Shown: positions 15,309 to 38,413 of the stretch, in pieces
Position numbering within the stretch: the first letter of the stretch is position 1
Layout of the letters: each line of letters starts with the position of its first letter
DNA from: Nanobdellota archaeon
GTDB taxonomy: Archaea > Nanobdellota > Nanobdellia > Woesearchaeales > JAHJEM01
NCBI GenBank assembly: GCA_043812855.1
Contig: JBDRLR010000076.1
Coordinates: forward strand, 1-41,391
DNA: 41,391 bases
Direction: 5' to 3'
Position numbers and translations under genes: made by a program
Notes under the pieces: generated by a model
Told to the model about the DNA's origin: nothing
Database searches by the model: none
The model's input: the letters and a program-made list of their open reading frames with translations, nothing else

Positions 15309-15539
15309 GTGAGTACGGCGAAACGCAAGGAACCAAAAGGGATCACGATAGGCGACAGCATCGAGGTGCCAAGCTCCATCTTCCGCGACCGACGCGCGTG
15401 CGTGCTCGAGAGCGTCGTGTACTATCTCAAAGAGACCAAAGGACTGACGTTCCATCAGATCGCCGTGCTGCTCAACCGGGACGACCGCACCATCTGGACC
15501 GCATACACCCGCACCGTGAAGAAGCGGAGGCGACGATGA
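15309..15539 (+). CDS. small helix-turn-helix DNA-binding protein (HTH1; sigma-70 region 4 / LuxR-like HTH)
   Basis: LESVVYYLKETKGLTFHQIAVLLNRDDRTIWTAYTRTVKKRRRR. Paralogue of 25971-26195. GTG 15309 aligns with the paralogue's N-terminus (STAKRK vs MSKKRA); TTG 15294 is an alternative start. The stop overlaps the giant gene's ATG. Confidence 0.7.
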   Translation: MSTAKRKEPKGITIGDSIEVPSSIFRDRRACVLESVVYYLKETKGLTFHQIAVLLNRDDRTIWTAYTRTVKKRRRR

Positions 15540-18500
15540 ACGAGAAGATTATCGCCGCAAGCAAAGAGATCGAGCGCCTCACGCACGAGCGAGACTCGAC
15601 CATAACCACGCTCGAAAAATACGAGCACGAGAACTATGTCGGCGTACTGACCGATGCGGAATACTTCCACCGCGTCATCGAACTGACCGGAGGCATATCC
15701 GAGCAGCAATACATCGCCGGACTGAACAAGGCGATCGGGAAGAAACAAGAAGAGCTCGAGAAGCTACGCAAGAAATACGAAGGGCATGATGAACGAAAGG
15801 CCGTCGCCGCCATCGGCGCCATGCTCTTTGTGCTGTTCGTCGTAGTCATGTGGCTGCCTTCTGGTCCCACCGGCTATGCGGTGCTCGACGCTAATACGAC
15901 AGTCAATGCGGTGCCCAACATCACGCTCGTCGATGAGGCGCGACTGAACATCAGCGACATCCTGCCTGACGTCGATCCTGCAGGAGTCACGGTCGAGATG
16001 ACTCGGATGCCACAGGTGCGGCTCGGCTACTCCGATGGCATACTCACCTTCACATCCACAGGGTTCCCTGGACAGTACACCGTCCGCCTGACCATCAGCG
16101 ATTCCGAAACGAGCATCACGACCGATTGGTTCACCATCACCGTGCTCAAAGACACCGCACCGACCATCAGCGGCGCGCCTATGCATGGCCCTGTGGAGTT
16201 CGGCAAACCCGTCACGTGGACACAGACGATCACAGCAGAAAACACGCTCTTGGAACGCATCGACAAACGCATCCCGGTCCGCCTTCCACGCGGATACGAG
16301 ACGCTGCTCATCCAAGACCAAGACACAGGAAGCAGCATTGACACCTTTGAAATCACCGACGTCACCGCCGACGCGGTGGCGCTGGACGTGCGCGATGAAG
16401 TCGGCGCAGGGGAAGAGAAGACGTACACCTTCACGTACACGACACCCGGGCCCGAGAAGGTCGAGGAAAGCATCGACCGATTCACCAAACGTGTCAGGGT
16501 GTCCTCAGTGTACAACTACAGCAATGTGACAGTGAGCGCGGACATCGGTGGCTATCCCGCCGAAGCCGTGCGAGTGTGGTGGATGAGCGACGCGGGACGC
16601 GCGCTCATGGACGCCGCGCTGATCGACCTTGACGTCGATGGGCTTGTGGATCGCGCCGAGTGGCAAGTGCCTCACTTCTCCGAGCAGGAATTCCTGGTCG
16701 AAATCACTATCCTGAATGTGCAGAGCTATCCCGCGGTCGGCGGGACGTGGACAGTACGTTTCAACACCACTGGCGTCGGTGACCTTGCGGTAAGAGTCAT
16801 CAACGGCACCAGCTGGGACGACGAGAACGACGACTTCGATTTGACATTCGCGCAGCTACAGTGCGGCGAGGACATCATCGACGCCAGCTTCATCACACTC
16901 ACCGGACAGACCAGCTACGTGCTGGTCCCCAACTACACCTGCAACTCGACCGGAGGCGAGATCAGCGGAGTCAACACGCCCGGAAAACACCACCTGGAAT
17001 TCGAATTCGGCGGGCAGAAGGCATGGGCGAACAACGATGCATCAGTCATCACCCTGCTCAGTCCCGGAAACAGGACCATCACCTCAAACCAGTACGTCAA
17101 TTTCTCCTGCTATGTCTCGGACGGAGACGGCATCGCGAACATCACCCTGTACACCAACGCGAGCGGGACATGGAAAGCCAACGAGACCGAGTATCCTTAC
17201 GGCATCAACCTGCTCGCACCGAACGGAGACTTCGAAGAAGGTCTGGGGGTCATGAACACCCGCAACGAGACGATGTGGAACTGCGTCACTGGCACATGTA
17301 CGCGCAACACGACGTCCTATGTCGAAGGATCAAGCAGCATGACCATCGCGGGGAGCAACGCATACCTGCGTCGATATTTCGACCCTCCCTTCGACGCGAC
17401 AGGAGGCGTGGCCAACACCAGCCAAATCGAAGCGGGCAAGACCTACACACTCAGCTACTGGCTGAAGACCGACCTGACCGGTGGAAGTATGAATGTCGCA
17501 TATCTTGGCGGCATCACGACTGCTGAATACGGTGTGAACCCTGCGATAGGACTCAGCATCTCAGGCAGCAGCGCCTGGACATTCTACAATATCACATTCA
17601 CCATCACCGCAGTTGGCGCGCAGCCCCAGATCAGACTTCCGTGGCCGAGCGGAACCAGCGGAGGGTATGTAATCGACGCGGTGCAATTGACCCAAGGCAC
17701 CGCGCCGCGCGCATTCACGGACGACCGCTACGGATACATCGGGATCGAGATGGACAACGGCTGCACCGTGCCAGGAGCCTGCTACACCGCGCGGACCGGG
17801 GCCAACATCACCTACACGCTCAACAACTTCACGCGGATCTCGCCGAGCGGCTCGTTCTACGACCAGGACTTCGAGCACTGCCAGGATACCAGCCGCTGCC
17901 AGATGAACTTCACCATCCAGAACGTCACGTACGACGGACAGTACCGCATGATGGTGTTTGGCCGAGACCTCAACCTCACTGCGGGCGGCATCGAATTCAG
18001 CGACGACGGAACGACGTGGAACGACTATTTTGAAGCCACAGGATACGCTCTGCGCTACCTCAAGAACATCACCATCACTGGCGGAAAATCAGACACCATG
18101 CACTTCCGCAAATACGCCGTCGACTCAGGACACCACGGGTGGCTGGACCGCATCATACTCGTACCGATAACACTGACCAACTACACGGCGAACTTCTCAA
18201 GCATCAACCTCTCTGATGGGGCGTTTGAATGGGCATGCCGACTCATCGACAACACAAGCGTCACAACGTTCGCCGCCCAGAACTACACCCTGTTCATCGG
18301 GAACGTGGCGCCGGACCAACCCATTCCCAACATCACAGGGATCGGAGGGACGAACAACACCAACGAAGACATCAACTGCTCAGCGATCATCACTGATCCC
18401 AACGCGAACACGACCGATGTGACGGTGCGGTGGTACAACAACTCTGAGTTCGTGCTGGTGGAATATTTCAATAACAGCTACGTGAACGGGACGCTGTTCA

Positions 18501-21500
18501 ACGCGACGCTCGGAGCAGGGAACACGACCAGAGGAGATACATGGACCTGCGAGATGCGGCTCTACGATGGGAACCTGCATAGCGGATGGGGTAACAGCAG
18601 CACTATCGCTATCGCCAACAGCGCACCCGACACGCAGACGCCCAACATCAGCAGCGTCGATGGCAGCAACATGAGCTCCGCCGATCTGAACTGCTCCTCC
18701 ATCATCGGAGACCTCGACGGTGACACCCTGGACGTCTCCGTGCGCTGGTACAACAACTCGGAGTTCGCGCTTGTCGACTATTACAACAACAGCTATGTGA
18801 ATGGGACGCTGTTCAACGCGACGCTCGGAGCAGGGAACACCTCAGGCAAAGACCGATGGAACTGCGAGATAAGGACCGGCGACGGAACGGAAACGAGCGC
18901 ATGGGCAAACTCGAGCGCGATCAGCATCATTGATACGACACCACCAATCATCACCTTCGTGTCGCCCAGCCCCGGCAACGCGTCGACCGTCTACGCAAGA
19001 TGGACCTCCCTGAGCGCCACCGTCGTCGACGCGTCCCGGACGGCCGCATGGTTCGACTGGAACCGATCACTGCTCGGGTACTGGAGCATGGAATACTCCA
19101 ATGCCACAGGTATCTTGGACAACTCTACGCACGACGTCACGGCCCAATTCAAGAACGGCCTGAACGCGAGCGGACTGCACACAGGACTGTTCGGAACGGC
19201 GCTGCGCTTCGACGGGACAAACGATTATCTGAACCTGACCTCTCTCATATCGGCACGCAATGTCACCTACGGCGGATGGTTCTACTTCGACGACTTCAGC
19301 TGTCCAGGAGACTACTGCGTGCCTATGCAGCAGGCGACCAGCGGCGACGTAGGATACGAGATGTACACCGATACGACAGGCAAACTCTGGTGCTACGACG
19401 GAGCATTGGCCTCTCCGACCGCAGGCGTCACGATATCCGCAGGAACCTGGCACCATATCATGTGCTGGCACAACAGCACACATTTCGGACTGTACGTGAA
19501 CGGGACGCTACAAGGCGTCACGCGCGCGAGCACGGCCAACCCTGTAGCAGAGGACCTCGTCGTCGGCGGCGGAGTGGACCAGAATAGTTATTGGTTCAAC
19601 GGCAGCGCCGATGAGATCATCGTGTTCAACCGCGCGCTGGGAGGCGACGAGATCCTGACGCTCTTCAACAACTCCGCGAATGCCCTTGCGCACAACTTTA
19701 CCAGTCTTGATGCGGGGACATACAACTACACTGCGTACGCGATGGATGACTCAGGAAACCTGAAGATCACCGACGTGCGCAATGTCGTGGTCGACCCGGA
19801 CTGTTCTGTGGACGGAACAGAACTCATCATCACCACATACAAGACGTGCAGCAACAGCACGATGCGTCCGACAAACCTGACGATCAATTCAGGCGGCACA
19901 CTTATGCTCGACGGCGTGAACCTGACCGTGACGGGGAACACGACCGTGAAGAGCGGAGGCGTGCTCGACGTTCGCAACTCGCACGACTCGGTATGGTACA
20001 ACGGACCCGTCACCGTAACAGGACTGAACAACTATTCAGGTGTCACGGTGCATATGAACGGCACGTGCGACGGATGCGTCTGGATGAACGTCACCGGCAC
20101 CATCGACATGACTGACACGACATTCACCAACGGAGACGACGCGGCCAGCCAATACCTCTTCCGGGCGCAGCCAGGCGCCATCGTCAACATTCGGGGCTCG
20201 CTCATAGAGCAGTCAGGGTATGCTGACACGACGTACGGACGTGGACCGCTCATCCAGTCAGACTACGCCAACATCACGAACACCACATTCGGCGACAACT
20301 TCTACGGCCTGGTGCTCGACGGAGCAATGCATGCCCACATACACAACAGCTCGCTGTCTGCCGGAACAGGGGGCGTCAGCATCTATCTGCGCTACGCCAA
20401 CTGGACGACCATCAACACGACTGACATCCAGACCACATCGATGGCGCTTAACTGCTACCAGTCCGGAAACGTGAGCGTCATGAACAGCACCATGACCGCA
20501 ACGCCAGGCACTGATTTTCTCCAGCAGGTCTACATGAACGACTGCGACGACTGGAACATCACCGACACCAACATCACCATGCATGATAACCCTGCGGTCC
20601 AGACTGACAACGTGTATCTAGAGAACAGCGACCGGAGCATCTGGAGCCGAGTCAACATCACGCATGAGATCACGATCGACGCGTCGTCAGGGATCATGCT
20701 CCAAACATCCCACGACGCACTTTTCCTGAGCAGCTACGTGGAAGGCATGACATGGAACCCCATCAGCGCCGTAGACAGCGAAGGCTTCACCGCGGTCGAC
20801 ACGAAGATAGTGACTGGCGATGGGGGCGACAGCGCCATCTTCGTGAGCAACTCCGCGCTCACCTTCCTGAACGTGACGCACTCCGCGAACACCGTCATCA
20901 CCGCATCCGGCGGCGTCATCATCAACAAGCACCGACTGCGCTTCGCCGTGAAAGACGACCAAGGCGACGCTGTCGACAGCGTCAGCGTCACGCTCTACAA
21001 CAAGACAGCGCAGAGCGAATACGGATTGACGAGCGGAAGCGACGGGAACACCACGTGGAACAACGCAACCCAATACATCCAGACAGGTACCACCGCGTTC
21101 ACGTACTACAGCAACTACAGCGCAAACGCCACGCACGCAGGGTATACGACCGCAAGCACGACATTCAACCACACCACCAGCGGGACGAGAAACATCACCA
21201 TCAGCGCCACCCCTGCCTTGAGCAGCGGACCCAACATCACGAATGACCCTAAGCTCTTCAACGACATCGCGTGCAAAGCGGTGGTGCGCGACGCGGACAG
21301 CTCGACCCTGTACGTCAACTACTCCTGGTACAAGAACGGAGCCAAGCAGATCAGCGGACAACAGGCAGCGACCAACAACACCCTCGCGACCGTCACCCTG
21401 ACGGCAAACTACACCATCAACGGAGAGTCTTGGCAATGCGAGATCACACCCTACGACACTTTCGGCTATGGCACGAGCACGAACAGCAGCGCAGTGACGG

Positions 21501-24500
21501 TCAACAACGTCGTCACCTGCGGCGACACGATCAGCAGGGCCGGAAGCTACATCGCGAACGCGAGCGTCAGCAACTACGGCGGAGTCGGAGCGATATGCGT
21601 CAAGATCAACGTGAGTGACGTGAACCTGGACTGCAAAGGATACACGTTCGATGGCACGGACAGCTCAAATTCATATGGCATATACGCCTACGGGACACAG
21701 AGCGTCTGGACCAGGAACGTCACGGTCGGCAACTGCTCGTTGAACGACTGGAGCATCGGTCTCGACTATGTGTACCTCAATTCAGGACTGATAATCGACT
21801 CCAATGTCACCAGCGGCCGCTCTGGTGGAACAAGCTTCTTCATCGCGATAACAAACCAGACGAACATCACACGCGTCGTGAGCAGCGGCACGACGTACGG
21901 CATCAGGACGTCAAACACCAACAACAGCATGATACGGAACTCGACCGCCACGGACATCACTAGTCTGCACATAGTCTCTTCAGAAAACATCACATTACAA
22001 GGGATCAGCGCCAGCACAGGGACCACACTCGTCACCGTACAGTCCGGAGAGAATGTGAGCATCATCGATAGCGTCTTCGACTCATTCACAACCACAGGCA
22101 TCGAGCTTGACTATACCAACCGAATCACCATGACCAATCTGACACTCACTCATCCGACGGGAAGCAGCGCGAACGGCATCCTGTTCGTAGGATCAGGGAA
22201 CAACAGCGTGACCAACACGACAATCAGACGGATCGCAAGAGCGATAGATATGAATGGCTTTGCTGCCCTCAGCCTTCGCGCGGACGGAAACCTCATCGCC
22301 AACAACACGTTCGAGGACAATCAGTACGGAGTCTATATAGGCCCTACGACATCAAACACGATAGTAATCCTCAACAATATCACGTCGAACCGGATCATCA
22401 ACAGCAGCGAGTACGGCATCTACATCAGCATGGTCAATGCAGCCAACATCACCAACAACACCATCTGGAACAACTTCCTCAACAACACCAACAACAGCAA
22501 TGTCACGGACGGAACGTACAACGCATGGAACACGAGCAACACCACCGCCACCAACATCATCGGCGGAACGAAGATCATCGGCAACTACTGGGCATGGCCA
22601 AACGGAAGCGGATATTCGCAGACCTGCGCGGACCTCGACAACGACGACATATGCGACCAAGCATACACCCTGGCTGCGCAGAACGTCGACTACTGGCCGC
22701 TGACCGACCCCAACCGTGCGCCCTACATGAATGGTTCGCGCATCTCGCCGACGACCGCATACGTCAGCGACAAACTTCTAGGATACTGCAACGGCACGGA
22801 CCTCGACAACGACAACCTGACATACTACTACTCGTGGTACGTGGACGGAGTCAAGAACCAGACTGGCAGCAACAACAACGCGAGCATCCGCTTCTTTCCG
22901 GGAGTGGAAGCGAATGTGAACAATGTCACGAGCAACAATCTCGCCGCGGGCCAAAGCTGGATGCTGGAATGCATCGCGTACGACGGAGCATCCAACAGCT
23001 CAAAGATGAACAGCAGCAGCCTTGCCATCCAGAACAGCCTGCCTGCGGTGACGAACGTGCACATCGAGCCGGACCCAGCCATCACGACCGACACGCTGCG
23101 AGGATACTGCACGGCCACGGACGCCAACAGCCAGAACGTCACGTACAACTGGGCATGGTACCGCAACGGGACGGTGTACAGCACCGGACGGGAGGCTGGG
23201 ACTGCCTCCACTGTCACCATCAGACCCGACGGAGCCGGAGAGAACACACAGATCGAGTTCCAAGTCCCTGGCAGCGACAGCCACTGGGACAAGGTGGACG
23301 AGGCGACGGCGGACGACGATACCACGTACGTCTATACTGACCAACTCTCGTCGACTCCCAATACGACCCTAGACTTGTACACACTTGAATCTCCAGGCAT
23401 ATCGGATGGAACCATCAGCAAGATTGTGGTCACCGCTCGCCTCTATCAGTACGCGATCGGGGACGCATACGTGAAGAGGAGGTTCTCCGTGCGTACATCA
23501 TCCACCTACTATTCCACGCAGGCAAACCTCATCTTTGGTTGGCGCACAGCATCCAATACTTGGAACACTGATCCCGCAGGAGGAAGCTGGACGTGGAGCG
23601 CCATCGAAACACTGCAAGCAGGCATGGAGCTCGAAGTACAAGGCGATGATGTTCTGTCGGCAGTGGCTGGATTGTCTCAAGTCTATGCAATCATATCATA
23701 CAAGACCAACGTCCCCAACCACACGCAAGGCGTGGAATTCAACATCGCAAACATCTCCAACTCACTGACATCACACAACCAACTGTGGGTCCTCGAATGC
23801 TGGGCGGAGGACGGAATCGGCAACGGCACGAAGGTCAACAGCACCGCGCTGAACATCTCCAACTCGCCGCCCAACACGCCCACGCTCATCGCGCCAAGCA
23901 ATGACAACCAGACGGTGCACGAGCGACGCTTCGACTTCGACTGGAGCACCACCGACCTCGACAGCGACCCTCTGACGTACAACATCAACATCACCAGCAA
24001 CACCGGATGCGCAGGAGACATCCACATCACCGGCGACACGTACTCCAACTACACACCCACCGTCAATCTGTGCACCGTGGATGAAGACGGCGGGACGAAC
24101 GTCTACAACTGGACCGTCCAGGCATGTGACCCCCACGATTGCAGCGCATGGAGCGAAAGCTGGAACTTCACCATCGAACCCTACGTCTCCATCGCGTTCC
24201 TCAACAACGAGATCAACTTCGGCGACCTGCGATTGGGAGAGTGGAACGACACCAGCGACGACGACCCGCCCCCGTTCACGCTCGAGAACCAAGGGAACGT
24301 CCTGGCCGAAGTCATCAACGTCACCGCCAACGCATCCATATGGAGCAGCCAGCCGCTCGGCAGCGAATACTGGCAGATCAAAGCCGACAACTCCAGCGAG
24401 CCCGACTCATTCAACTGGTCCAATAGCACCACCAACTACGTGCCCATCAGCGCAAGCAACCAATCCATCATCGGCAGCCTGCTGTGGAACGACACCTCAG

Positions 24501-24598
24501 ACACCGTCGAGATCGACATCAACGTCAGCGTCCCCATGCAAGAACCGCCAGGGAACAAGACCGCCAAAGTCATCATCTGGTTCACCCAACTCACATGA
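15536..24598 (+). CDS. giant (~3020 aa) N-terminally anchored surface adhesin-like protein
   Basis: ATG 15536 follows GGAGG (15526-15530) and overlaps the HTH1 stop (ATGA). Domain order: ~85-aa charged coiled-coil N-terminus; one TM (AVAAIGAMLFVLFVVVMWL, ~15800-15856); Ig/cadherin-like modules; CBM-like jelly roll (NGDFEEG...YVIDAVQL, ~17210-17700); two tandem 105-aa modules (18308-18937); LamG-like module (LRFDGTNDYLNL...ADEIIVFNRAL, ~19060-19680); parallel beta-helix/NosD-like regions (~19800-22700, with GNYWAWPNGSGY..DLDNDDICD); further L-x-C..WY-x-NG..W-x-C-E..DG modules; an FN3-like module; and a C-terminal subunit-like domain (24176-24595). N-x-S/T sequons are very dense. Confidence 0.9.
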   Translation: MNEKIIAASKEIERLTHERDSTITTLEKYEHENYVGVLTDAEYFHRVIELTGGISEQQYIAGLNKAIGKKQEELEKLRKKYEGHDERKAVAAIGAMLFVLFVVVMWLPSGPTGYAVLDANTTVNAVPNITLVDEARLNISDILPDVDPAGVTVEMTRMPQVRLGYSDGILTFTSTGFPGQYTVRLTISDSETSITTDWFTITVLKDTAPTISGAPMHGPVEFGKPVTWTQTITAENTLLERIDKRIPVRLPRGYETLLIQDQDTGSSIDTFEITDVTADAVALDVRDEVGAGEEKTYTFTYTTPGPEKVEESIDRFTKRVRVSSVYNYSNVTVSADIGGYPAEAVRVWWMSDAGRALMDAALIDLDVDGLVDRAEWQVPHFSEQEFLVEITILNVQSYPAVGGTWTVRFNTTGVGDLAVRVINGTSWDDENDDFDLTFAQLQCGEDIIDASFITLTGQTSYVLVPNYTCNSTGGEISGVNTPGKHHLEFEFGGQKAWANNDASVITLLSPGNRTITSNQYVNFSCYVSDGDGIANITLYTNASGTWKANETEYPYGINLLAPNGDFEEGLGVMNTRNETMWNCVTGTCTRNTTSYVEGSSSMTIAGSNAYLRRYFDPPFDATGGVANTSQIEAGKTYTLSYWLKTDLTGGSMNVAYLGGITTAEYGVNPAIGLSISGSSAWTFYNITFTITAVGAQPQIRLPWPSGTSGGYVIDAVQLTQGTAPRAFTDDRYGYIGIEMDNGCTVPGACYTARTGANITYTLNNFTRISPSGSFYDQDFEHCQDTSRCQMNFTIQNVTYDGQYRMMVFGRDLNLTAGGIEFSDDGTTWNDYFEATGYALRYLKNITITGGKSDTMHFRKYAVDSGHHGWLDRIILVPITLTNYTANFSSINLSDGAFEWACRLIDNTSVTTFAAQNYTLFIGNVAPDQPIPNITGIGGTNNTNEDINCSAIITDPNANTTDVTVRWYNNSEFVLVEYFNNSYVNGTLFNATLGAGNTTRGDTWTCEMRLYDGNLHSGWGNSSTIAIANSAPDTQTPNISSVDGSNMSSADLNCSSIIGDLDGDTLDVSVRWYNNSEFALVDYYNNSYVNGTLFNATLGAGNTSGKDRWNCEIRTGDGTETSAWANSSAISIIDTTPPIITFVSPSPGNASTVYARWTSLSATVVDASRTAAWFDWNRSLLGYWSMEYSNATGILDNSTHDVTAQFKNGLNASGLHTGLFGTALRFDGTNDYLNLTSLISARNVTYGGWFYFDDFSCPGDYCVPMQQATSGDVGYEMYTDTTGKLWCYDGALASPTAGVTISAGTWHHIMCWHNSTHFGLYVNGTLQGVTRASTANPVAEDLVVGGGVDQNSYWFNGSADEIIVFNRALGGDEILTLFNNSANALAHNFTSLDAGTYNYTAYAMDDSGNLKITDVRNVVVDPDCSVDGTELIITTYKTCSNSTMRPTNLTINSGGTLMLDGVNLTVTGNTTVKSGGVLDVRNSHDSVWYNGPVTVTGLNNYSGVTVHMNGTCDGCVWMNVTGTIDMTDTTFTNGDDAASQYLFRAQPGAIVNIRGSLIEQSGYADTTYGRGPLIQSDYANITNTTFGDNFYGLVLDGAMHAHIHNSSLSAGTGGVSIYLRYANWTTINTTDIQTTSMALNCYQSGNVSVMNSTMTATPGTDFLQQVYMNDCDDWNITDTNITMHDNPAVQTDNVYLENSDRSIWSRVNITHEITIDASSGIMLQTSHDALFLSSYVEGMTWNPISAVDSEGFTAVDTKIVTGDGGDSAIFVSNSALTFLNVTHSANTVITASGGVIINKHRLRFAVKDDQGDAVDSVSVTLYNKTAQSEYGLTSGSDGNTTWNNATQYIQTGTTAFTYYSNYSANATHAGYTTASTTFNHTTSGTRNITISATPALSSGPNITNDPKLFNDIACKAVVRDADSSTLYVNYSWYKNGAKQISGQQAATNNTLATVTLTANYTINGESWQCEITPYDTFGYGTSTNSSAVTVNNVVTCGDTISRAGSYIANASVSNYGGVGAICVKINVSDVNLDCKGYTFDGTDSSNSYGIYAYGTQSVWTRNVTVGNCSLNDWSIGLDYVYLNSGLIIDSNVTSGRSGGTSFFIAITNQTNITRVVSSGTTYGIRTSNTNNSMIRNSTATDITSLHIVSSENITLQGISASTGTTLVTVQSGENVSIIDSVFDSFTTTGIELDYTNRITMTNLTLTHPTGSSANGILFVGSGNNSVTNTTIRRIARAIDMNGFAALSLRADGNLIANNTFEDNQYGVYIGPTTSNTIVILNNITSNRIINSSEYGIYISMVNAANITNNTIWNNFLNNTNNSNVTDGTYNAWNTSNTTATNIIGGTKIIGNYWAWPNGSGYSQTCADLDNDDICDQAYTLAAQNVDYWPLTDPNRAPYMNGSRISPTTAYVSDKLLGYCNGTDLDNDNLTYYYSWYVDGVKNQTGSNNNASIRFFPGVEANVNNVTSNNLAAGQSWMLECIAYDGASNSSKMNSSSLAIQNSLPAVTNVHIEPDPAITTDTLRGYCTATDANSQNVTYNWAWYRNGTVYSTGREAGTASTVTIRPDGAGENTQIEFQVPGSDSHWDKVDEATADDDTTYVYTDQLSSTPNTTLDLYTLESPGISDGTISKIVVTARLYQYAIGDAYVKRRFSVRTSSTYYSTQANLIFGWRTASNTWNTDPAGGSWTWSAIETLQAGMELEVQGDDVLSAVAGLSQVYAIISYKTNVPNHTQGVEFNIANISNSLTSHNQLWVLECWAEDGIGNGTKVNSTALNISNSPPNTPTLIAPSNDNQTVHERRFDFDWSTTDLDSDPLTYNINITSNTGCAGDIHITGDTYSNYTPTVNLCTVDEDGGTNVYNWTVQACDPHDCSAWSESWNFTIEPYVSIAFLNNEINFGDLRLGEWNDTSDDDPPPFTLENQGNVLAEVINVTANASIWSSQPLGSEYWQIKADNSSEPDSFNWSNSTTNYVPISASNQSIIGSLLWNDTSDTVEIDINVSVPMQEPPGNKTAKVIIWFTQLT
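18308..18937 (+). repeat. tandem duplication, 2 x 315 nt (105-aa Ig-like module) inside the giant gene
   Basis: Units start at 18308 and 18623. They share an identical 38-mer, GGGACGCTGTTCAACGCGACGCTCGGAGCAGGGAACAC, and the protein block VRWYNNSEF.LV.Y.NNSYVNGTLFNATLGAGNT. Confidence 0.85.
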
Positions 24599-25974
24599 AC
24601 GACACCGACAGAAGGATAGCGAAAGGTCAGACGCAGATGATACTCTGCCTGTTCATACTGCTCATCTTCTCCACAGGAGTCCACGCCCTCGGCGTCGCGC
24701 CATCGCGCACCGTCGTCGACTACACCGGACAGAAGGAGATCATCATCTCCGGACGCGTCCTCAACAATGAGGCAAAAGACATGCGCGTCCTCATCGTCCC
24801 CGCCGACGACCTCGCCGGTAGCGTGACCATCCCGCAGAACATCATCAGCCTCACCGCAGGCCAAGGAGAGGCGAAGTTCACCTACGCACTCGTCGTTCCG
24901 ACCAACCTGAGACCAGGACCCAACCTGCTCTCCATGCACTTCATCGCGCTGCCCGCAGAACGGCAGCAAGAGATCATCGTCGTCGGAGGAAAGCTCGTCA
25001 CGCTTGACACCGAACACGACACCGCCCAAATCAGCGCGACCAGCGCAATCATCCAGCAGGTCGTCATCCAAGTCCCCTACCCTGGAACGTACGCCGACGG
25101 AAAACTCTACGTCGGCGCAAGCGGCATCAACGAGCCCGTCACGTTCACCGCCAGCCTCCACAACCGCGGAGACACCCACATCAGCGCTCAAGGATACGTC
25201 CTCATCAAAGGCGCAACGAACGAAGAGATCGCGCGCCTGGACATCCCCGGAACCGTCGAGATCGACAGCAACGGCGAATCCAAGCTCGTCGCCCAATGGG
25301 ACGGAACGTCCAACGAAGGCATCTACTACGCCGAGTTCATCGTCACCTACAACGGCGAGACCCTCGTGCTCGACCAGCCATTCAACATCGGAAACAAGTA
25401 CATCGCGATCGAAGAGATCAATGTCAAGAGCTTCCGTCTCGGAGCCATCGCCAAGCTCGACGTGGCGCTCCTGAGCAAATGGAACGAACCAATCATGGAC
25501 GTCTACAGCGAAATGCAGATCCTCGACAAGGAAGGATCAGTCCTCGACACCTTCAAGACCAGCGAAGTCACACTGCCTGCCCGGGGCAAAGGCGTCGTCT
25601 CAGGATACTGGGACACAGAAGGCGTGCAGATCGGCGACTACGACGTCCAGGTCGTCGTCAATTACGCAGGAACGACCAGCCAGAAACTCTTCGACGCAGT
25701 CGTGTCGCTCGACTCCATCACGTTCAAAGGACAGACGCTCACCGGAGAAGTCATCGGCAGCCCGCAAAGCGGAGGCAAGCTGAGCCTGCTCATCATCCTG
25801 GTCGGCGTCCTCATCGTGCTGAACATCGGACTGTTCATCTTCATCAAACGATCATGGCGAGGGCGGCCGCCTCAAGGCGGACCGCAGCAACCCTACGCCT
25901 CGCCTCCCGTATCGTCGCCGAACATCGCTTCCGCTAGCGCGCCGCAACAACCAGGCCAGAGGTACGGTCCATGA
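24595..25974 (+). CDS. membrane-anchored multi-Ig (CARDB/PapD-like) surface protein, copy 1
   Basis: The ATG overlaps the giant gene's stop (ATGA). Signal peptide ..LLIFSTGVHA then LGVAPSRTVVDYTGQKEIIISGRVLNN. Several beta-sandwich modules. C-terminal TM LSLLIILVGVLIVLNIGLFIFI and a P/Q-rich tail. Paralogue of 27242-28444. Start at M38 of ORF 24484-25974. Confidence 0.85.
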   Translation: MNDTDRRIAKGQTQMILCLFILLIFSTGVHALGVAPSRTVVDYTGQKEIIISGRVLNNEAKDMRVLIVPADDLAGSVTIPQNIISLTAGQGEAKFTYALVVPTNLRPGPNLLSMHFIALPAERQQEIIVVGGKLVTLDTEHDTAQISATSAIIQQVVIQVPYPGTYADGKLYVGASGINEPVTFTASLHNRGDTHISAQGYVLIKGATNEEIARLDIPGTVEIDSNGESKLVAQWDGTSNEGIYYAEFIVTYNGETLVLDQPFNIGNKYIAIEEINVKSFRLGAIAKLDVALLSKWNEPIMDVYSEMQILDKEGSVLDTFKTSEVTLPARGKGVVSGYWDTEGVQIGDYDVQVVVNYAGTTSQKLFDAVVSLDSITFKGQTLTGEVIGSPQSGGKLSLLIILVGVLIVLNIGLFIFIKRSWRGRPPQGGPQQPYASPPVSSPNIASASAPQQPGQRYGP

Positions 25975-26322: not shown

Positions 26323-26568
26323 TTGAGAGACCAAAGTGACGTATCGAAGCGGACCATCGTTGTCCTGGTCGTCCTGGTCACTGTGCTCACCATTCTTGGT
26401 TCCCTGAGCGTGCTCAAAACCCTCGAGGACTTCAAACAGACGCAGAGCAGGTCAATGACTGAAGAAGGATCAGCACAACAGGTCGGACACGTCAGCATCC
26501 GCGTCATCGATGAGACTGAAGGAACGGACACCGCGACCGGCCGAGTACTGCTCTACGTAGGTGACTAA
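26323..26568 (+). CDS. 81-aa N-terminally anchored small protein (hypothetical)
   Basis: TTG 26323 is the only in-frame start. Basic N-terminus plus hydrophobic helix (SKRTIVVLVVLVTVLTILGSL), then a short beta-rich tail (GHVSIRVIDE..GRVLLYVGD). AGGTGA near its 3' end serves the next gene. Confidence 0.5.
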   Translation: MRDQSDVSKRTIVVLVVLVTVLTILGSLSVLKTLEDFKQTQSRSMTEEGSAQQVGHVSIRVIDETEGTDTATGRVLLYVGD

Positions 26569-26569
26569 C

Positions 26570-27236
26570 ATGGACATGTCGAATAGAACCCTTTCCGCGC
26601 TCCTCGTCGCGGCCATCGTACTCACTCTTGGGGCAAGCATCATCAGCCTTCAACAGCTCGGAAACGTGCTCGGTCCCACCGGATTCGCCACGTCAAGCAC
26701 AGGCATGGTGAACCTGACCATCCTCAGCCAGACCGACATCACACTCACTGGAGACAATATCGACTTCGGATCAGGAGTCGTCAACAGTTCATCTGCATGC
26801 AACAACGCCACCCTGCACTCCAACGGCAGCGGCGTGAACACCGACGCATGCTGGGTCAACCAATCACTCACACCCAACAGCGCCATCCCTGCAACCGAGG
26901 CCAAATTCATCCTCAACAACTCAGGAAATGTCAACATCTCAATCACAATGGACAGCGTCAAGAACAACGCGACCAACTTCATGGGGAACAGCACCGTCAT
27001 CCGACGCGCTCTACCAGTACACGGTCAACCACAACGGAAGCGGACAGCCCTGCCAGACCACGCTCGCGACGGGATGGAACAACTTCTCCGCGAGCGCGAC
27101 CATGGGCGTGTGCGGCGAACTCTTCTGGGAAGACGGTAGGGACGCCGTCGCCGTGGCCATCCTGGTCCGCATCCCTGAAGACGTCGAACGAGGATACAAA
27201 AGCGACAATCTGACATTCACGTCGGCGCAGGCATAG
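26570..27236 (+). pseudogene. beta-rich secreted small subunit, copy 1, interrupted by a +1 frameshift
   Basis: ORFs 26561-27139 and 26928-27236 together align end-to-end with 28921-29598. There is one extra C at 27001/27002 (ATCCGACGC versus ATCGACGC in the paralogue). ATG 26570 follows AGGTGA. Confidence 0.7.
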
Positions 27237-27241: not shown

Positions 27242-28444
27242 ATGATGGGCGCACAACTATATACTCGTTCCATCACAGTATGCTTATTAGTCCTCTTCTT
27301 GTTCGTCCAGGGAACCTCAGCGATAGGCCTGCGAGGAGTCACGCTCAAGGACGAGATCTTCTTCCAACCAGGGATAGTGAGGGAATATGACTTCCTCCTG
27401 TATGCCAACGCAGGATTCACGCAGGACTACGAATTCTACGTGCGCATGTTCGAAGGAGACGACCTGACGCAATACGTCACGCTCGACAAGACCTATGTGG
27501 AGGACGTCGGGAGCGGTGGCAACGTCCCATTCCATGCCACACTGCGGCTACCTGACAAGATCGAGCACCCAGGCATCCACGACATCCGCATCGGCGTGAG
27601 GGAGACTGAAGTGGCGGGCGGCGGCGCGATCGGAGCGAAGACCGGAAGCGAAGCGCGAGTCATCATCTACGTCCTCTACCCTGACCCCTATCTCATCAGC
27701 CAATTCAACGCACGCAGCTTCAACGTCGACGAAGCAGGAGACTTCACATTCCAGATCAGCAACTTCGGCGAACCCTCAGTCATCGTCAACGGCGTCGTCG
27801 ACATCTACGACGCCGACGACAAGCACGTGACGACGGTCAGAAGCGAGAACCAACGCATCGAGCCCACCAAGAAGGTCCAGCTGCCTGTCCGCCTCGACAC
27901 CAAAGGCATGGTCCCGGGCCTCTACCGCGCCGAAGCCGACCTGTTCTGGGCCGCGAACGTGACCAACTTCACCACATACTTCAAGGTGGGCGACCTGAGT
28001 GTCAAAGTCGTCAACCACACAAAGGAAGTCAAGGCCGACGCCATCAGCAGCTTCATCATCTCCATCGAAAGCGGATGGAACAACAGGATCAAGGACATCT
28101 ACGGCATTGTCACCGTCCGCGACGCGCAAGGCGGAAAACTCAAGGAATTCAAGACCGTCAACACCGACCTTGATCCCTGGCAGCCCAAGGAATTGCAAGG
28201 ATACTTTGACGCCGACGGACTCGCGCCAGGGACATACCCCATCGACATCACGCTCTTCTACGAAGGCCTGCAGACCGTCGAACACGGAGAGGTCCTCGTC
28301 AGCGAAGACGCCCAAGTCGAGACATTCGAAGAGATACCAGGACAACCGAGCCTTCTTAGCATGCAGACACTGCTGATCATCGTGGTCTGCCTGCTCGTCG
28401 CCATCCTCGTCGCCCTCGCCGTCCTCGTCATCAGGAGGCGATGA
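27242..28444 (+). CDS. membrane-anchored multi-Ig (CARDB/PapD-like) surface protein, copy 2
   Basis: Signal peptide ..LFLFVQGTSA, beta-sandwich modules, and C-terminal IPGQPSLLSMQTLLIIVVCLLVAILVALAVLVIRRR. Paralogue of 24595-25974. AGGTG lies just upstream of the ATG. Confidence 0.85.
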   Translation: MMGAQLYTRSITVCLLVLFLFVQGTSAIGLRGVTLKDEIFFQPGIVREYDFLLYANAGFTQDYEFYVRMFEGDDLTQYVTLDKTYVEDVGSGGNVPFHATLRLPDKIEHPGIHDIRIGVRETEVAGGGAIGAKTGSEARVIIYVLYPDPYLISQFNARSFNVDEAGDFTFQISNFGEPSVIVNGVVDIYDADDKHVTTVRSENQRIEPTKKVQLPVRLDTKGMVPGLYRAEADLFWAANVTNFTTYFKVGDLSVKVVNHTKEVKADAISSFIISIESGWNNRIKDIYGIVTVRDAQGGKLKEFKTVNTDLDPWQPKELQGYFDADGLAPGTYPIDITLFYEGLQTVEHGEVLVSEDAQVETFEEIPGQPSLLSMQTLLIIVVCLLVAILVALAVLVIRRR

Positions 28445-28881
28445 TGAAGAGACGAGACGTGATCGTCCTGCTGGTGCTGGTCGCCGTGCTCGCATATGGC
28501 CTGACCAGCATGTTCTATCTGTGGCTCGGTCCCGCCGGACAGCATCGGATCCTCGGAGGCGAGACGGTCAACGTGACGCTCAGCATCACACCCTACCGTC
28601 AGATGAACTTCAACGCCAACACCGACGGACTCCACTTCGACGGAGTCCCCCAAGGGAGCTCCGCGCGCAAATACATCACCCTGACCAACATCCGAACCGT
28701 GCCAGTCAACGTCGAAGTCGCGATCACCGGAAACATCACGGCGTTCATGATCGCATACCCCTCATCATTCTCATTGGATCCTGGGACGTCCGCAAACATC
28801 ACAGTCTCAGTCGATGTCCCCTCCGAAGCGGAAGCGGCAAGCTACGATGGAAGTCTCATCATCGTCTACCGTCACACATAA
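28441..28881 (+). CDS. N-terminally anchored single Ig-domain protein (PapD/MSP/ASH-like pattern)
   Basis: ATG overlaps the upstream stop (ATGA), with AGGAGG at 28433-28438. TM VIVLLVLVAVLAYGL. Then FDGVPQGSSARKYITLTNIRTVPVNVEV..FSLDPGTSANITVSVDVP..YDGSLIIVY. Confidence 0.75.
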   Translation: MMKRRDVIVLLVLVAVLAYGLTSMFYLWLGPAGQHRILGGETVNVTLSITPYRQMNFNANTDGLHFDGVPQGSSARKYITLTNIRTVPVNVEVAITGNITAFMIAYPSSFSLDPGTSANITVSVDVPSEAEAASYDGSLIIVYRHT

Positions 28882-28920: not shown

Positions 28921-29598
28921 ATGGTCAGCAACCGTGCGCTCTCGCTTCTCATCGTCGCTGCGGTCGTCATCTCTGTGGGCGGGCAGATTTGGAGCGTCAA
29001 CCAGATACAATCCGCACGAATCCTGACACCAGGCCTCCCCACAGGCTACGCGGTCGCCGCGACAGGCATGGTGAACCTGACCATCCTCAGCCAGACCGAC
29101 ATCACACTCTCCGGCGACGTCATCGACTTCGGCACCGGCGTCGTCAACAGCTCGTCAGGATGCAACAACGCCACCCTGCACTCCAACGGCACCGGCGTCA
29201 ACACCGACGCATGCTGGGTCAACCAATCACTCACCCCCAACAGCGCTATCCCTGCGACACAAGCCAAGTTCATACTGAACAACTCAGGCAACGTCAACAT
29301 CTCCATCACGCTCGATAGCATCAAGAACAACGCCACCAACTTCCTCGGCAACAGCACCATCATCGACGCATTCTACCAGTACACTGTCAACCAGAACGGA
29401 AGCGGACAGCCCTGCCAGACCACGCTCGCGACGGGATGGAACAACTTCTCCGCAAGCAGTACGATGAGCGTGTGCGGCGAACTCTTCTGGGAAGACGGCA
29501 AAGACGCGGTCAACGTCGCCATCCTGGTCCGCATCCCCGAAGACGTCGAACGCGGATACAAGAACGACAACCTGACCTTCACGTCAGCCCAGGCATAG
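28921..29598 (+). CDS. beta-rich secreted small subunit, copy 2 (intact)
   Basis: N-terminal MVSNRALSLLIVAAVVISVGG. Then GMVNLTILSQTDITLSGDVIDFGTG..FILNNSGNVNISITLD..ELFWEDGKDAVNVAILVRIPEDVERGYKNDNLTF. Long stretches are nucleotide-identical to copy 1. It resembles the giant protein's C-terminal domain. Confidence 0.8.
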   Translation: MVSNRALSLLIVAAVVISVGGQIWSVNQIQSARILTPGLPTGYAVAATGMVNLTILSQTDITLSGDVIDFGTGVVNSSSGCNNATLHSNGTGVNTDACWVNQSLTPNSAIPATQAKFILNNSGNVNISITLDSIKNNATNFLGNSTIIDAFYQYTVNQNGSGQPCQTTLATGWNNFSASSTMSVCGELFWEDGKDAVNVAILVRIPEDVERGYKNDNLTFTSAQA

Positions 29599-31958: not shown

Positions 31959-32052
31959 CGATCTGCACAAGAAACTCAAGCTCGAAGCGGTCAAGGCAGG
32001 CCGCACGCTCAAAGAACACATTATCACGATACTCGAACATGGCCAGAACTAG
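31930..32052 (+). CDS. 40-aa ribbon-helix-helix protein, copy C
   Basis: MAHINIQIPDDLHKKLKLEAVKAGRTLKEHIITILEHGQN. Its 3' end (CATGGCCAGAACTAG) contains the ATG (32039) of the 1232-aa surface protein. Confidence 0.6.
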   Translation: MAHINIQIPDDLHKKLKLEAVKAGRTLKEHIITILEHGQN

Positions 32053-36513: not shown

Positions 36514-37506
<993 letters not shown>

Positions 37507-37509
37507 ACC

Positions 37510-38412: not shown

Positions 38413-38413
38413 T

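What the first reader, a model, noticed from the sequence alone, without database searches (positions are those of the whole stretch)
24176..24595. The giant protein ends in a domain paralogous to the free-standing small secreted subunits
The last ~140 aa of the giant protein are: IAFLNNEINFGDL..FTLENQGNVLAEVINVTA..YWQIKADN..NWSNS..SLLWNDTSDTVEIDINVSVPMQEPPGNKTAKVIIWF. They align motif for motif with the 225-aa protein at 28921-29598: LTILSQTDITLSGDVIDFGTG..FILNNSGNVNISITLD..YQYTVNQN..GWNNF..ELFWEDGKDAVNVAILVRIPEDVERGYKNDNLTF. An adhesin carrying a copy of the polymerising subunit domain is the logic of tip adhesins in donor-strand-exchange pili and of TasA/camelysin-like fibres. This is not established for an archaeal locus of this type.
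Basis: inference. Interest (0 to 1): 0.75.

Follow-up and report, generated by a model that had tools for sequence, protein, structure and literature searches.

The report
Shared docking domain on giant archaeal adhesin
The giant surface protein of this tiny symbiotic-type archaeon really does end in a domain related to the small membrane-anchored proteins encoded next to it, and the pairing recurs in at least six to eight loci from other such archaea, pointing to an undescribed apparatus for mounting huge adhesins on the cell surface.

Summary
The last ~145 aa of the 3,020-3,066-aa protein (about 24152-24595) are homologous to the 225-aa protein at 28921-29598. BLASTP alone is weak (E 0.009). 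Profiles are decisive: family profile against the C-terminus gives hhalign 97.2%, E 4.5e-11, and giant-tail profile against small-protein profile gives 99.4%, E 6.5e-22. Two AlphaFold models agree strand for strand.

The window is from a DPANN archaeon ('Nanoarchaeota' MAG). The small protein belongs to an unannotated family with 737 representative clusters. It sits in a conserved cassette: an ~80-aa protein, the ~225-aa subunit, a ~400-aa Ig-repeat membrane protein and a ~146-aa protein.

In other Woesearchaeota, Aenigmatarchaeota and unclassified-archaeon loci, large proteins from 424 to over 2,400 aa end in the same FN3-like + cysteine-free domain. In six loci (plus this window) they are followed directly by a paralogue of the ~400-aa protein; in two more, after one small gene.

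The pilus or TasA reading is only partly supported. The free subunit's best fold matches are donor-strand-exchange pilins, but weakly. There is no TasA, chaperone, usher or type IV pilus signature. The closest known logic is the WxL cluster of Gram-positive bacteria. I read the domain as a shared assembly or docking module. The mechanism is unproven.

The parts
15398..24598 (+). Giant surface protein (3,066 aa from GTG 15398; 3,020 aa from ATG 15536). It has an N-terminal cytoplasmic segment, one TM helix, Laminin_G_3, NosD/beta-helix and repeated Ig-like modules, and many N-x-S/T sequons.
   Evidence: ORF and translation; Pfam Laminin_G_3 7e-16, NosD 1e-15, Beta_helix 2.9e-10.
15800..15856 (+). 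Predicted N-terminal transmembrane helix of the giant (AVAAIGAMLFVLFVVVMWL), followed by 'PSGPTGYAV'.
   Evidence: Read from the sequence. The subunit N-terminal HMM does not hit it, so the PTGYA resemblance is not statistically supported.
23867..24175 (+). FN3-like domain that always precedes the terminal domain in large proteins of this type. Its last strand, 'WNFTI', aligns with the subunits' 'VNLTI'.
   Evidence: AF2 tail model with seven strands, E6-9 to E99-103, pLDDT 91.4. Conserved in the tails from six loci (A7) and in P0152-P0160 (P0152/P0153 are the L012/L011 tails). Foldseek top hits are tandem FN3 pairs.
24152..24595 (+). The finding: the C-terminal, cysteine-free copy of the small-subunit beta-sandwich domain ('A1 domain', giant type).
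   Evidence: hhalign 97.2%, E 4.5e-11; hmmsearch 39.9 bits, 9e-12; profile-profile 99.4%, E 6.5e-22; strand-by-strand DSSP match.
24595..25974 (+). p461: signal peptide, Ig-like repeats, C-terminal TM helix and a Pro/Gln-rich tail. It is a paralogue of p400. Its ATG overlaps the giant's TGA (ATGA).
   Evidence: BLASTP against p400 3e-20; ATGA overlap. An equivalent gene directly follows the large protein in L009, L011, L012, L014, L015 and L016, and after one small gene in L017 and L020.
26323..26568 (+). s81: small protein with only the subunits' N-terminal module (leader, TM helix, linker, first strand) plus one more short strand.
   Evidence: A1 HMM positions 2-53, E 1.6e-5. N-terminal HMM E 5.8e-5 here and down to 2.5e-10 in orthologues. 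It is the conserved first gene of the cassette.
26561..27232 (+). Small subunit copy A, interrupted by a +1 frameshift (extra C near 27001).
   Evidence: Three-frame translation; DNA alignment to copy B; HMM hits 2.3e-46 and 2.1e-21 on the two pieces.
27242..28444 (+). p400: signal peptide, about three Ig-like domains and a C-terminal TM helix. This is the conserved third gene of the cassette.
   Evidence: Orthologues at 29% identity, E 2e-57 to 2e-61. Of 16 family members, 11 give sub-threshold WxLIP_HBD hits and 7 give CARDB hits, one above its cut-off. PDB CARDB-like 2kl6 at 2e-4.
28441..28881 (+). p146: N-terminal TM helix plus an ASH / PapD-like / choice-of-anchor-D type beta-sandwich. 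This is the conserved fourth gene of the cassette.
   Evidence: Pfam Cep192_D3 3e-5 and PapD-like 2e-3; NCBIfam choice_anch_D 5.7e-6, all below cut-off. Orthologues. hhalign to the A1 and A7 profiles gives about 50%, E 2e-4.
28921..29598 (+). Small subunit copy B (225 aa): conserved leader 'SN[KR]x', a 28-residue helix, a ~30-aa linker, and a 10-strand beta-sandwich with four cysteines.
   Evidence: AF2 pLDDT 86.9. Family of 737 representative clusters, the 150 listed mostly 200-250 aa. No Pfam or NCBIfam hit.
29644..31587 (+). p647: cadherin/Big_9-like domains, poly-Gly linker, four Cys-rich repeats, TM helix and a helical cytoplasmic tail. Its association with the cluster is conserved.
   Evidence: Pfam Big_9 6.9e-8. 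A p647-like gene follows the closest subunit homologue in L001 and follows the cluster in L017.
32039..35737 (+). p1232: tandem cadherin-like / Big_9 repeats, CARDB-like domain, coiled region and a C-terminal TM helix. Its association with the cluster is conserved.
   Evidence: Pfam Big_9 2.6e-13; NCBIfam tandem-95 7.7e-9. A p1232-like gene followed by MoxR is present in L017.
36514..39367 (+). MoxR AAA+ ATPase, DUF58 and VWA/BatA genes directly downstream. They may belong to the extended locus.
   Evidence: Pfam AAA_3 5e-60, DUF58 2.7e-43, VWA_2 1.7e-19 with BatA. MoxR holds the same position in L017-L019.

Best explanation
**What it is.** The terminal domain is the common assembly or docking module of a conserved, so far undescribed DPANN cell-surface apparatus.

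**The core cassette** has four genes:
- s81: the N-terminal helix-plus-strand module only.
- The ~225-aa subunit: the same N-module plus the A1 beta-sandwich.
- p400: a membrane-anchored stack of Ig-like domains.
- p146: a membrane-anchored ASH-like sandwich.

**The cargo.** Variable cargo proteins, from 424 aa to over 3,000 aa and adhesin-like, are plugged into this apparatus through a constant C-terminal FN3 + cysteine-free A1 module. Each is co-expressed with its own p400 paralogue. Here that is p461, which is translationally coupled to the giant through an ATGA overlap.

**Proposed mechanism (inferred, not shown).** The A1 sandwich is bound and held at the membrane by edge-strand or beta-strand complementation. 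The partner would be the cognate p400-type protein, the orphan N-terminal strand of the subunit or s81, or both. This parallels the AlphaFold prediction that WxLIP inserts a strand into WxL domains in Gram-positive WxL clusters.

**Shown:** the homology, the module composition, the conserved gene order and the predicted folds. **Inferred:** physical interaction, strand complementation and an adhesion function.
For: - **Homology of the giant tail and the small subunit:**
- **A large, unannotated family of free-standing subunits:** 737 representatives; named members sampled are hypothetical proteins from Woesearchaeota.
- **A conserved four-gene cassette** in independent MAGs of Woesearchaeota and Aenigmatarchaeota.
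- **Large proteins ending in FN3 + A1:** directly followed by a p400 paralogue in L009, L011, L012, L014, L015 and L016; followed after one small gene in L017 and L020.
- **Cargo size varies from 424 to over 2,400 aa with a constant tail.** One version (P0158) has only an ordinary Sec signal peptide, so its tail is its only candidate retention device.
- **The two domain types are anciently diverged.** Identity is 22.7% between types and 35% within the giant type; the giant type has 0 Cys against typically 4. This fits each type having its own cognate p400 paralogue.
- **Weak resemblance of p400 to WxLIP:** 11 of 16 members give WxLIP_HBD hits, and the overall architecture matches WxLIP.
- **The WxL cluster has the same logic:** a small protein, a large protein with a simpler C-terminal copy, and a TM Ig-tandem protein. 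Strand insertion there is predicted in PMC10599100 and PMC9772566.
- **ATGA overlap** between the giant and p461.
Against: - No interaction was tested.
- The A1 family gives no hit to Pfam WxL, and the p400 hits to the WxLIP domains are all below Pfam's cut-offs. They overlap generic CARDB hits, so homology to the WxL system is not established.
- The numbers of A1 proteins and p400 genes are not strictly 1:1. The window has 3 against 2, L014 has 4 against 2, and L017 has 1 against 3.
- The small subunit has its own membrane helix, so it does not need a docking partner for retention.
- The window's giant also has an N-terminal TM helix.
- Some cassettes (L002, L005) have no large protein within 10 kb.
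Confidence: 0.5

Rival explanations
1. **Donor-strand-exchange fibre with a giant tip adhesin.**
- The giant is acceptor-only, like FimH or PapG, and sits at the tip.
- Subunits donate their N-terminal strand ('GxVNLTI') into the preceding A1 domain and polymerise after removal of the N-terminal helix.
- s81, which has a strand and a TM helix but no acceptor domain, terminates and anchors the fibre.
- The p400-type proteins act as membrane-tethered chaperones, one for each A1 type.
For: - Foldseek on the subunit model puts the TLP-1a DSE fibril first (E 6e-4). Csu, FimA, FimF, FimG, PapE and CsuE pilins follow, with TM scores up to 0.55 normalised by target. TLP-1a assembles by DSE (PMC11494351).
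- The module composition (N-module only, N-module plus domain, domain only) fits a head-to-tail chain exactly.
- The conserved N-terminal strand has alternating hydrophobic residues. It is confidently placed but has no strand partner in the monomer model.
- Several loci carry two or three subunit genes (L014, L016).
Against: - The Foldseek E-values and TM scores are weak.
- The giant tail model matches complete tandem FN3 domains, not incomplete pilin folds.
- Both AF2 models are confident, apparently complete sandwiches.
- There are no usher, sortase or dedicated peptidase genes in the cassette.
- The N-terminal helix is strongly conserved and no cleavage site is evident. 'TG[YF][AV]' is present in only 58 of 139 members and lies about 15-20 residues from the helix.
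- hhalign suggests a possible link between the domain and the complete ASH/PapD-like sandwiches.
Confidence: 0.25
2. **The shared domain is a ligand-binding or purely structural Ig-like module with no assembly role.**
- It might be, for example, a glycan- or host-binding domain.
- It would be used independently by a small membrane protein and by large adhesins.
- The conserved gene order would reflect co-regulation only.
For: - The fold is a generic Ig/FN3-like sandwich.
- A few family members give weak NPCBM_assoc hits, and p146 is ASH-like.
- No interaction has been demonstrated.
Against: - The domain is always at the extreme C-terminus and always behind the same FN3-like domain, whatever the cargo.
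- It is followed, directly or after one small gene, by a p400 paralogue, here with an ATGA overlap.
- A terminal binding domain would not explain that coupling. It would also not explain the N-module-only protein s81.
Confidence: 0.15
3. **The small proteins (s81, the subunit, p146) are archaeal type IV pilin-like proteins.**
- They would carry class III signal peptides cleaved after 'SN[KR]x'.
- The N-terminal helix would form a pilus core.
- The giant would be an accessory adhesin.
For: - The N-terminus is conserved: a short leader with K/R followed by a ~25-residue hydrophobic helix. This is unusual for Sec signal peptides.
- Window copy B reads 'NR-A|L', which fits the [KR][GAS] rule (sequence).
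Against: - Position -1 is Thr in most members (KTL 52, RTL 18 and smaller classes, among about 108 motif-bearing members of 139). This is not the canonical G/A/S.
- No Pfam or NCBIfam class III signal or pilin model is hit.
- A ~30-residue low-confidence linker separates the helix from the sandwich.
- No PilB/FlaI ATPase, PilC/FlaJ platform or prepilin peptidase gene is found in the window or the cassettes.
- The element shared with the giant is the C-terminal sandwich, not the helix.
Confidence: 0.07

Closest known systems
WxL gene clusters of Gram-positive bacteria (Csc clusters): small WxL protein, large WxL protein and WxLIP (DUF916 + DUF3324 + TM helix). Sources: PMC10599100, PMC9772566, PMC1534035.
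   Same: - A small protein that is essentially one domain.
- A large protein with variable host-binding N-terminal domains and a C-terminal copy of that domain. [quoted passage not shown]
- An adjacent protein with a signal peptide, tandem Ig-like domains and a C-terminal TM helix.
- p400-family members give repeated weak WxLIP_HBD hits (11 of 16).
- In WxL clusters AlphaFold predicts that a WxLIP strand completes the WxL sandwich. That is the kind of mechanism proposed here.
   Different: - There is no sequence similarity between the A1 domain and Pfam WxL, and no dual W-x-L motif.
- The p400 hits are sub-threshold and overlap CARDB.
- The host organisms are archaea of groups not known to make peptidoglycan (my own knowledge; not tested here), which is the WxL binding target.
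- The small subunit has a conserved N-terminal membrane helix.
- The cassette has two further components, s81 and p146.
- The large proteins reach over 3,000 aa and carry an obligatory FN3-like domain before the terminal domain.
Chaperone-usher and other donor-strand-exchange pili with two-domain tip adhesins (FimH, PapG, CsuE), and the environmental TLP-1a DSE fibril (PDB 9ikj, PMC11494351).
   Same: - The adhesin has a variable N-terminal part and a C-terminal copy of the subunit's Ig-like domain.
- The subunit has an N-terminal extension carrying a conserved strand.
- The free subunit model's best PDB fold matches are these pilins.
   Different: - The matches are weak (E 6e-4 to 0.1; TM 0.3-0.55).
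- No chaperone or usher is present.
- The subunit has a conserved TM helix in place of a cleavable signal peptide.
- The models look like complete sandwiches.
- The domain-bearing proteins are accompanied by p400 paralogues.
- No polymer has been shown.
TasA/camelysin fibres and the archaeal bundling pili AbpA (PMC9245690, PMC9674648).
   Same: They are extracellular beta-sandwich subunits that assemble by donor-strand complementation, and they are known in archaea as well.
   Different: - No Peptidase_M73/TasA sequence hit in any of 140 members.
- No TasA or AbpA entry among the 50 listed Foldseek matches.
- No SipW-type peptidase gene in the locus.

Membership tests
Donor-strand-exchange (chaperone-usher type) pilins | Ig-like pilin fold lacking its last strand, leaving a groove that is filled by a neighbour's strand | tested here: inconclusive
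   The subunit model's top Foldseek hits are DSE subunits, but weakly. The giant tail model matches complete tandem FN3 pairs. Model coordinates could not be inspected, so the presence of a groove is unknown.
Donor-strand-exchange (chaperone-usher type) pilins | N-terminal extension with alternating hydrophobic residues acting as donor strand; the tip adhesin lacks it | tested here: inconclusive
   A conserved 'GxVN[LV][TS][IV]' segment precedes the sandwich and has no strand partner in the monomer model. In the giant the aligned segment is the FN3 G-strand. Donation was not tested.
Donor-strand-exchange (chaperone-usher type) pilins | Dedicated periplasmic chaperone and usher genes in the operon | tested here: not met
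   No usher or PapD chaperone family was found in the window or in related loci. p146 gives only sub-threshold ASH/PapD-like hits.
TasA / camelysin (Peptidase_M73) fibres | Sequence or fold membership in the TasA/camelysin family, and a SipW-type signal peptidase nearby | tested here: not met
   No Peptidase_M73 hit in the window protein or in 140 family members. No TasA or AbpA entry among the 50 listed Foldseek matches. No signal peptidase gene was found in the locus.
WxL cluster (small WxL + large WxL + WxLIP) | WxL domain (Pfam PF13731) with two W-x-L motifs in both the small and the large protein | tested here: not met
   No WxL hit at E up to 10 for the window proteins. WxL is not among the 25 most frequent families listed for the 140 scanned members at E up to 1. 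The conserved motifs are 'IDFG.G', 'ENDGNVN' and 'IP.D..G'.
WxL cluster (small WxL + large WxL + WxLIP) | A small single-domain protein and a large protein with a C-terminal, simpler copy of the same domain, encoded together | tested here: met
   This is a feature of organisation only, not of homology.
WxL cluster (small WxL + large WxL + WxLIP) | Adjacent WxLIP: signal peptide, DUF916 (PGBD), DUF3324 (HBD) and a C-terminal TM helix | tested here: inconclusive
   p400 and p461 have a signal peptide, Ig-like domains and a C-terminal TM helix. WxLIP_HBD hits occur in 11 of 16 members (best 2.4e-5) and WxLIP_PGBD in 2 of 16, all below the cut-offs and overlapping CARDB hits.
Archaeal type IV pilins | Class III signal peptide, [KR][GAS] cleavage site directly before the hydrophobic helix, and pilin or class III models hit | tested here: not met
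   Position -1 is Thr in most members (KTL 52, RTL 18 and smaller classes). There are no Pfam or NCBIfam pilin or class III hits. Cleavage itself cannot be tested with these tools.
Archaeal type IV pilins | Assembly ATPase, membrane platform or prepilin peptidase genes | tested here: not met
   None was found in the window or within 10 kb of the cassettes. They could be encoded elsewhere in the genome.
ASH / PapD-like / choice-of-anchor-D Ig superfamily | Sequence-profile similarity to these sandwich domains | tested here: inconclusive
   p146 hits them below threshold. hhalign of the p146 profile against the A1 and giant-tail profiles gives 48-50% probability, E 2e-4, collinear over the whole domain.

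The most novel reading that the evidence does not exclude
The cassette encodes a new archaeal strand-exchange assembly line built from three module combinations:
- A membrane-anchored, strand-only protein (s81) acts as base and terminator.
- Strand-plus-domain subunits form the shaft or adaptor.
- Domain-only giant adhesins sit at the tip.
- Membrane-tethered Ig-repeat proteins (p400/p461) act as type-specific chaperones.

This would be the apparatus by which Woesearchaeota-type DPANN cells mount interchangeable giant adhesins to hold on to their hosts.
Probability: 0.2. Interest if true: 0.85.

Novelty: new variant of a known kind. Interest (0 to 1): 0.62.

Why it matters
DPANN archaea are thought to live attached to other cells, yet how most of them hold on is unknown, and their many giant surface proteins are unannotated.

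This result turns one anonymous 3,000-aa protein and a set of 'hypothetical' small proteins into a defined, recurrent system:
- a domain family with no Pfam or NCBIfam model (737 representative clusters);
- a conserved four-gene cassette;
- a rule that large, variable cargo proteins carry a constant FN3 + domain tail next to a cognate membrane protein.

That gives concrete, testable partners for interaction and structure work. It also gives a handle for finding the adhesin repertoire in DPANN genomes by searching for the tail. Finally, it offers an archaeal counterpart to the small/large/anchor logic of Gram-positive WxL clusters and the adhesin-with-pilin-domain logic of bacterial pili.

Tried and rejected
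**Searches and jobs that led nowhere**
- Word-indexed homologue search with the C-terminal 140 aa alone found nothing, not even the giant itself. With the 225-aa protein it found only the two window copies.
- The search for related loci with the broad family alignments failed for lack of conserved stretches. With the single 225-aa protein it found no relatives. The p400 alignment worked instead.
- Pfam and NCBIfam gave no hit for the domain or the subunit, even at E up to 10 for Pfam and up to 1 for NCBIfam.
- The PDB sequence-profile search gave only a spurious 0.014 hit to a solute carrier.
It was rerun with database fragments P0152-P0160.
- Foldseek with the two-domain tail returned tandem FN3 pairs, so it did not give a clean answer for the terminal domain alone.
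- Literature searches found no description of this cassette in DPANN.

**Ideas considered and rejected**
- Chance or compositional similarity: rejected by the profile results.
- A recent local duplication of the subunit onto the giant: rejected. The window's tail is 27-44% identical to other giants' tails but 22.7% identical to its own neighbour.
- The giant's N-terminus shares the subunits' N-module: rejected. The N-terminal HMM does not hit it.
- p400 is homologous to the A1 domain: rejected. hhalign gives 2.5%.
Full report
**1. What the window is**

The 225-aa protein is identical to a GenBank entry from a 'Nanoarchaeota archaeon' MAG on a contig of exactly the window's length. The flanks hold archaeal housekeeping genes: NMD3, PRPP synthase, an archaeal helicase and a DnaG-type Toprim protein. 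The giant ORF runs from 15398 (GTG) or 15536 (ATG) to 24598. Its Pfam hits are Laminin_G_3, NosD and beta-helix.

**2. Checking the observation**

The quoted peptides and coordinates are right.

Pairwise statistics alone would not carry the claim:
- BLASTP gives 20.8 bits, E 0.009.
- A Smith-Waterman score of 81 is 7.5 sd above shuffles.
- Among real, equally N/S/T-rich 140-aa windows of the same giant, the C-terminus is the best match, but the runner-up scores 68.

The exhaustive representative search changed the picture. The 225-aa protein belongs to a family with 737 representative clusters at E <= 1e-3. Most of the 150 listed are free-standing proteins of about 200-250 aa aligned from residue 2.

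Four profile tests support homology:
- A profile of 60 family members matches the giant's last 140 aa with hhalign probability 97.2%, E 4.5e-11, over 128 columns.
- hmmsearch of that profile against all 532 ORFs of the window hits nothing in the giant except its C-terminus (39.9 bits, 9e-12).
- A profile built only from seven giant tails matches the small-protein profile at 99.4%, E 6.5e-22, over 145 columns.
- That giant-tail profile recognises 134 of 149 retrieved family members.

**3. Structure**

| Model | Input | Quality | Content |
|---|---|---|---|
| 225-aa subunit | 140-sequence alignment | pLDDT 86.9 | Helix 4-31, poorly defined linker, ten-strand sandwich 61-224 |
| Giant's last 243 aa | Tail fragments plus trimmed family members | pLDDT 91.4, pTM 0.80 | Seven-strand FN3-like domain followed by the terminal sandwich |

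Mapped through the alignment, the two DSSP strings agree at 80.6% of 144 columns, strand for strand. Two caveats apply. The second alignment contains subunit sequences, so the models are not fully independent. Coordinates could not be superposed.

The giant-type domain lacks the subunit's cysteine-bearing hairpin and has no conserved cysteines.

The subunit segment 'GMVNLTI', just before the sandwich, aligns with 'SWNFTI' in the giant. There it is the last strand of the FN3-like domain. In the monomeric subunit model it has no strand partner.

**4. Surroundings and relatives**

Contigs carrying family members show a conserved four-gene cassette:
- a protein of about 80-90 aa;
- the subunit of about 220 aa;
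- a protein of 380-460 aa with a signal peptide and a C-terminal TM helix;
- a protein of about 145 aa with an N-terminal TM helix.

The window contains this cassette as s81 (26323-26568), subunit A (frameshifted), p400 and p146. It then continues with a second subunit copy (B), p647 and p1232.

Searching species-representative genomes with the p400 alignment returned ten loci from Woesearchaeota, Aenigmatarchaeota and unclassified archaea. In L009, L011, L012, L014, L015 and L016 a very long ORF ends in the same domain. The longest are at least 2,064, 2,091, 2,276 and 2,477 aa. Each is directly followed by a p400 paralogue and lies next to the core cassette, exactly as in the window (giant, then p461).

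All the tails have the same two-domain form, FN3-like followed by the cysteine-free domain. A database search with the tail profile found further fragments and two complete mid-size versions:
- P0157: 445 aa, with an N-terminal TM helix.
- P0158: 424 aa, with an ordinary signal peptide, seen on more than 24 contigs.

Their loci again hold p400 paralogues, after one small intervening gene. In L017 these are followed by p647-like and p1232-like genes and MoxR, as in the window.

The window's tail is 27-44% identical to other tails but only 22.7% identical to its neighbouring subunit. The two domain types therefore split long ago. This is not a recent local duplication.

**5. The other components**

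- **s81.** It is homologous only to the subunits' N-terminal module: leader, helix, linker and first strand.
- **The giant's N-terminus.** It is not detectably related to that module. The 'PTGYA' resemblance noticed after the helices is not statistically supported, and the aromatic version of the motif occurs in only 58 of 139 family members.
- **The p400 family.** It has no family assignment above threshold, apart from a CARDB hit (27.9 bits against a 22.7-bit cut-off) in the giant-associated paralogue of L014. Eleven of 16 members give weak WxLIP_HBD hits, seven give CARDB hits and two give WxLIP_PGBD hits. The PDB profile search finds CARDB-like domains.
- **p146.** It is an ASH / PapD-like / choice-of-anchor-D type sandwich below threshold. 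It may be remotely related to the A1 domain (hhalign about 50%, E 2e-4).
- **Coupling.** The giant's stop codon overlaps p461's start codon (ATGA).

**6. Mechanism**

Shown:
- homology of the terminal domain with the subunit;
- the three module combinations (N-module only; N-module plus domain; cargo plus FN3 plus domain);
- the conserved adjacency of domain-bearing proteins and p400 paralogues;
- variable cargo on a constant tail.

Inferred: the domain is the piece through which large cargo proteins and small subunits are integrated into one membrane-anchored surface assembly. The likely means is beta-strand complementation with a p400-type protein, with the orphan N-terminal strand of the subunit or s81, or with both. 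I give this 0.5.

It remains possible at about 0.25.
- For it: the subunit's best PDB fold matches are DSE subunits (the TLP-1a fibril at E 6e-4, then Csu, Fim and Pap pilins; TLP-1a described in PMC11494351). The module arithmetic also fits a head-to-tail chain.
- Against it: the fold matches are weak, the tail model matches complete tandem FN3 domains, no usher, chaperone or sortase genes are present, the N-terminal helix is conserved with no evident cleavage site, and p400 paralogues accompany the domain-bearing proteins in every locus, usually immediately downstream.

A type IV pilin reading is unlikely:
- Thr dominates position -1.
- No pilin models are hit.
- No assembly genes are nearby.
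- The element shared with the giant is the sandwich, not the helix.

TasA/camelysin has no support.

**7. Comparison with known systems**

The closest known organisation is the WxL cluster of lactobacilli, enterococci and Listeria. It has three parts:
- a small WxL protein;
- WxLIP (DUF916 + DUF3324 + TM helix), for which AlphaFold predicts that a strand inserts into the WxL sandwich (PMC10599100, PMC9772566).

The archaeal locus works like this on paper, but it is not a member. The A1 domain has no WxL signature, and the p400-WxLIP similarity is sub-threshold.

It also shares with chaperone-usher pili the design of an adhesin carrying a C-terminal copy of the subunit's domain, without meeting that family's defining features.

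**8. Novelty and verdict**

I found no description of this cassette in the literature searched. The family has no Pfam or NCBIfam model, and the named members sampled are 'hypothetical protein' from Woesearchaeota.

I rate it a new variant of a known kind: surface complexes or fibres in which large adhesins share an assembly domain with small subunits. It is found here in DPANN archaea, with two extra components and a distinct domain family.

Interest is 0.62. The mechanism rests on inference.

Noticed in passing
window 26561-27232 (insertion near 27001): Small-subunit copy A has a single extra C relative to copy B ('ATCCGAC' against 'AT-CGAC'), which shifts the frame. The two copies are 91% identical in DNA here, so the duplication is recent. 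The frameshift could be a pseudogene, phase variation or an assembly error.
   Followed up: partly
window 24595-24598: The giant's TGA stop overlaps the ATG of p461 (ATGA), which suggests translational coupling of the giant with its p400-type partner.
   Followed up: yes
window 26323-26568; L002 9691-9996; L005 9729-9986: s81 is a conserved mini-protein that consists of only the subunits' N-terminal module (leader, TM helix, linker, first strand) plus one more short 'GxVxLxV' strand. It is always the first gene of the cassette.
   Followed up: partly
window 26037-26195: A 52-aa ORF lies between p461 and s81. Its sequence looks like a helix-turn-helix (MTDRSLSIMESIVEHLMSKGYTYRELGILLNRDERTIWTV...), so it may be a local regulator. 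It was not scanned against any library.
   Followed up: no
window 15860-15880, 29040-29055, 26670-26685: A 'PTGYA' or 'PTGFA' motif follows the TM helix in the giant and in both subunit copies, and 'LTGFV' follows the TM helix in the L015 giant. The Gly is nearly invariant in the family, but the aromatic form occurs in only 58 of 139 members, and the N-terminal HMM does not hit the giants. It might be a processing or sorting site.
   Followed up: partly
window 29644-31587 and 32039-35737: p647 and p1232 both contain poly-glycine linkers. p647 also has four Cys-rich 'G[VI]DCGGxCxxC' repeats, a TM helix and a helical cytoplasmic tail. p647-like and p1232-like genes accompany the cluster in L001 and L017.
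   Followed up: partly
window 36514-39367; L017 21200-21275: MoxR (AAA_3), DUF58 and VWA/BatA genes directly follow the surface-protein cluster. MoxR holds the same position after the p1232-like gene in L017-L019, so this Bat-like module may belong to the same system.
   Followed up: partly
window about 18300-18900 (giant aa ~950-1130); P0158 aa ~85-180: The giant contains two tandem copies of a ~90-aa module ('DLNCS..I.D...D.LDVSVRWYNNSEF.LV.Y.NNSYVNGTLFNATLGAGNT'). The same module appears in the 424-aa tail-bearing protein P0158, so cargo modules are shuffled among these proteins.
   Followed up: no
window 2227-3678: An archaeal protein combines a SurA-like N-terminal domain with a PPIC-type rotamase domain (Rotamase_3 1.5e-24, SurA_N 6.4e-12). 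This architecture is typical of bacterial periplasmic chaperones.
   Followed up: no
window 14242-14907 and 12589-14142 (-): A free-standing LAGLIDADG_3 ORF lies next to a gene fragment that has only the C-terminal half of an archaeal Hel308-type helicase (Helicase_C, domain 4, HHH). This hints at a split or disrupted gene.
   Followed up: no
L017 11311-11799; L020 3904-4398: A conserved ~162-164-aa protein with an N-terminal TM helix sits between the mid-size tail-bearing proteins (P0158, P0157) and their p400 paralogues. It has no counterpart in the window and no HMM hit.
   Followed up: no
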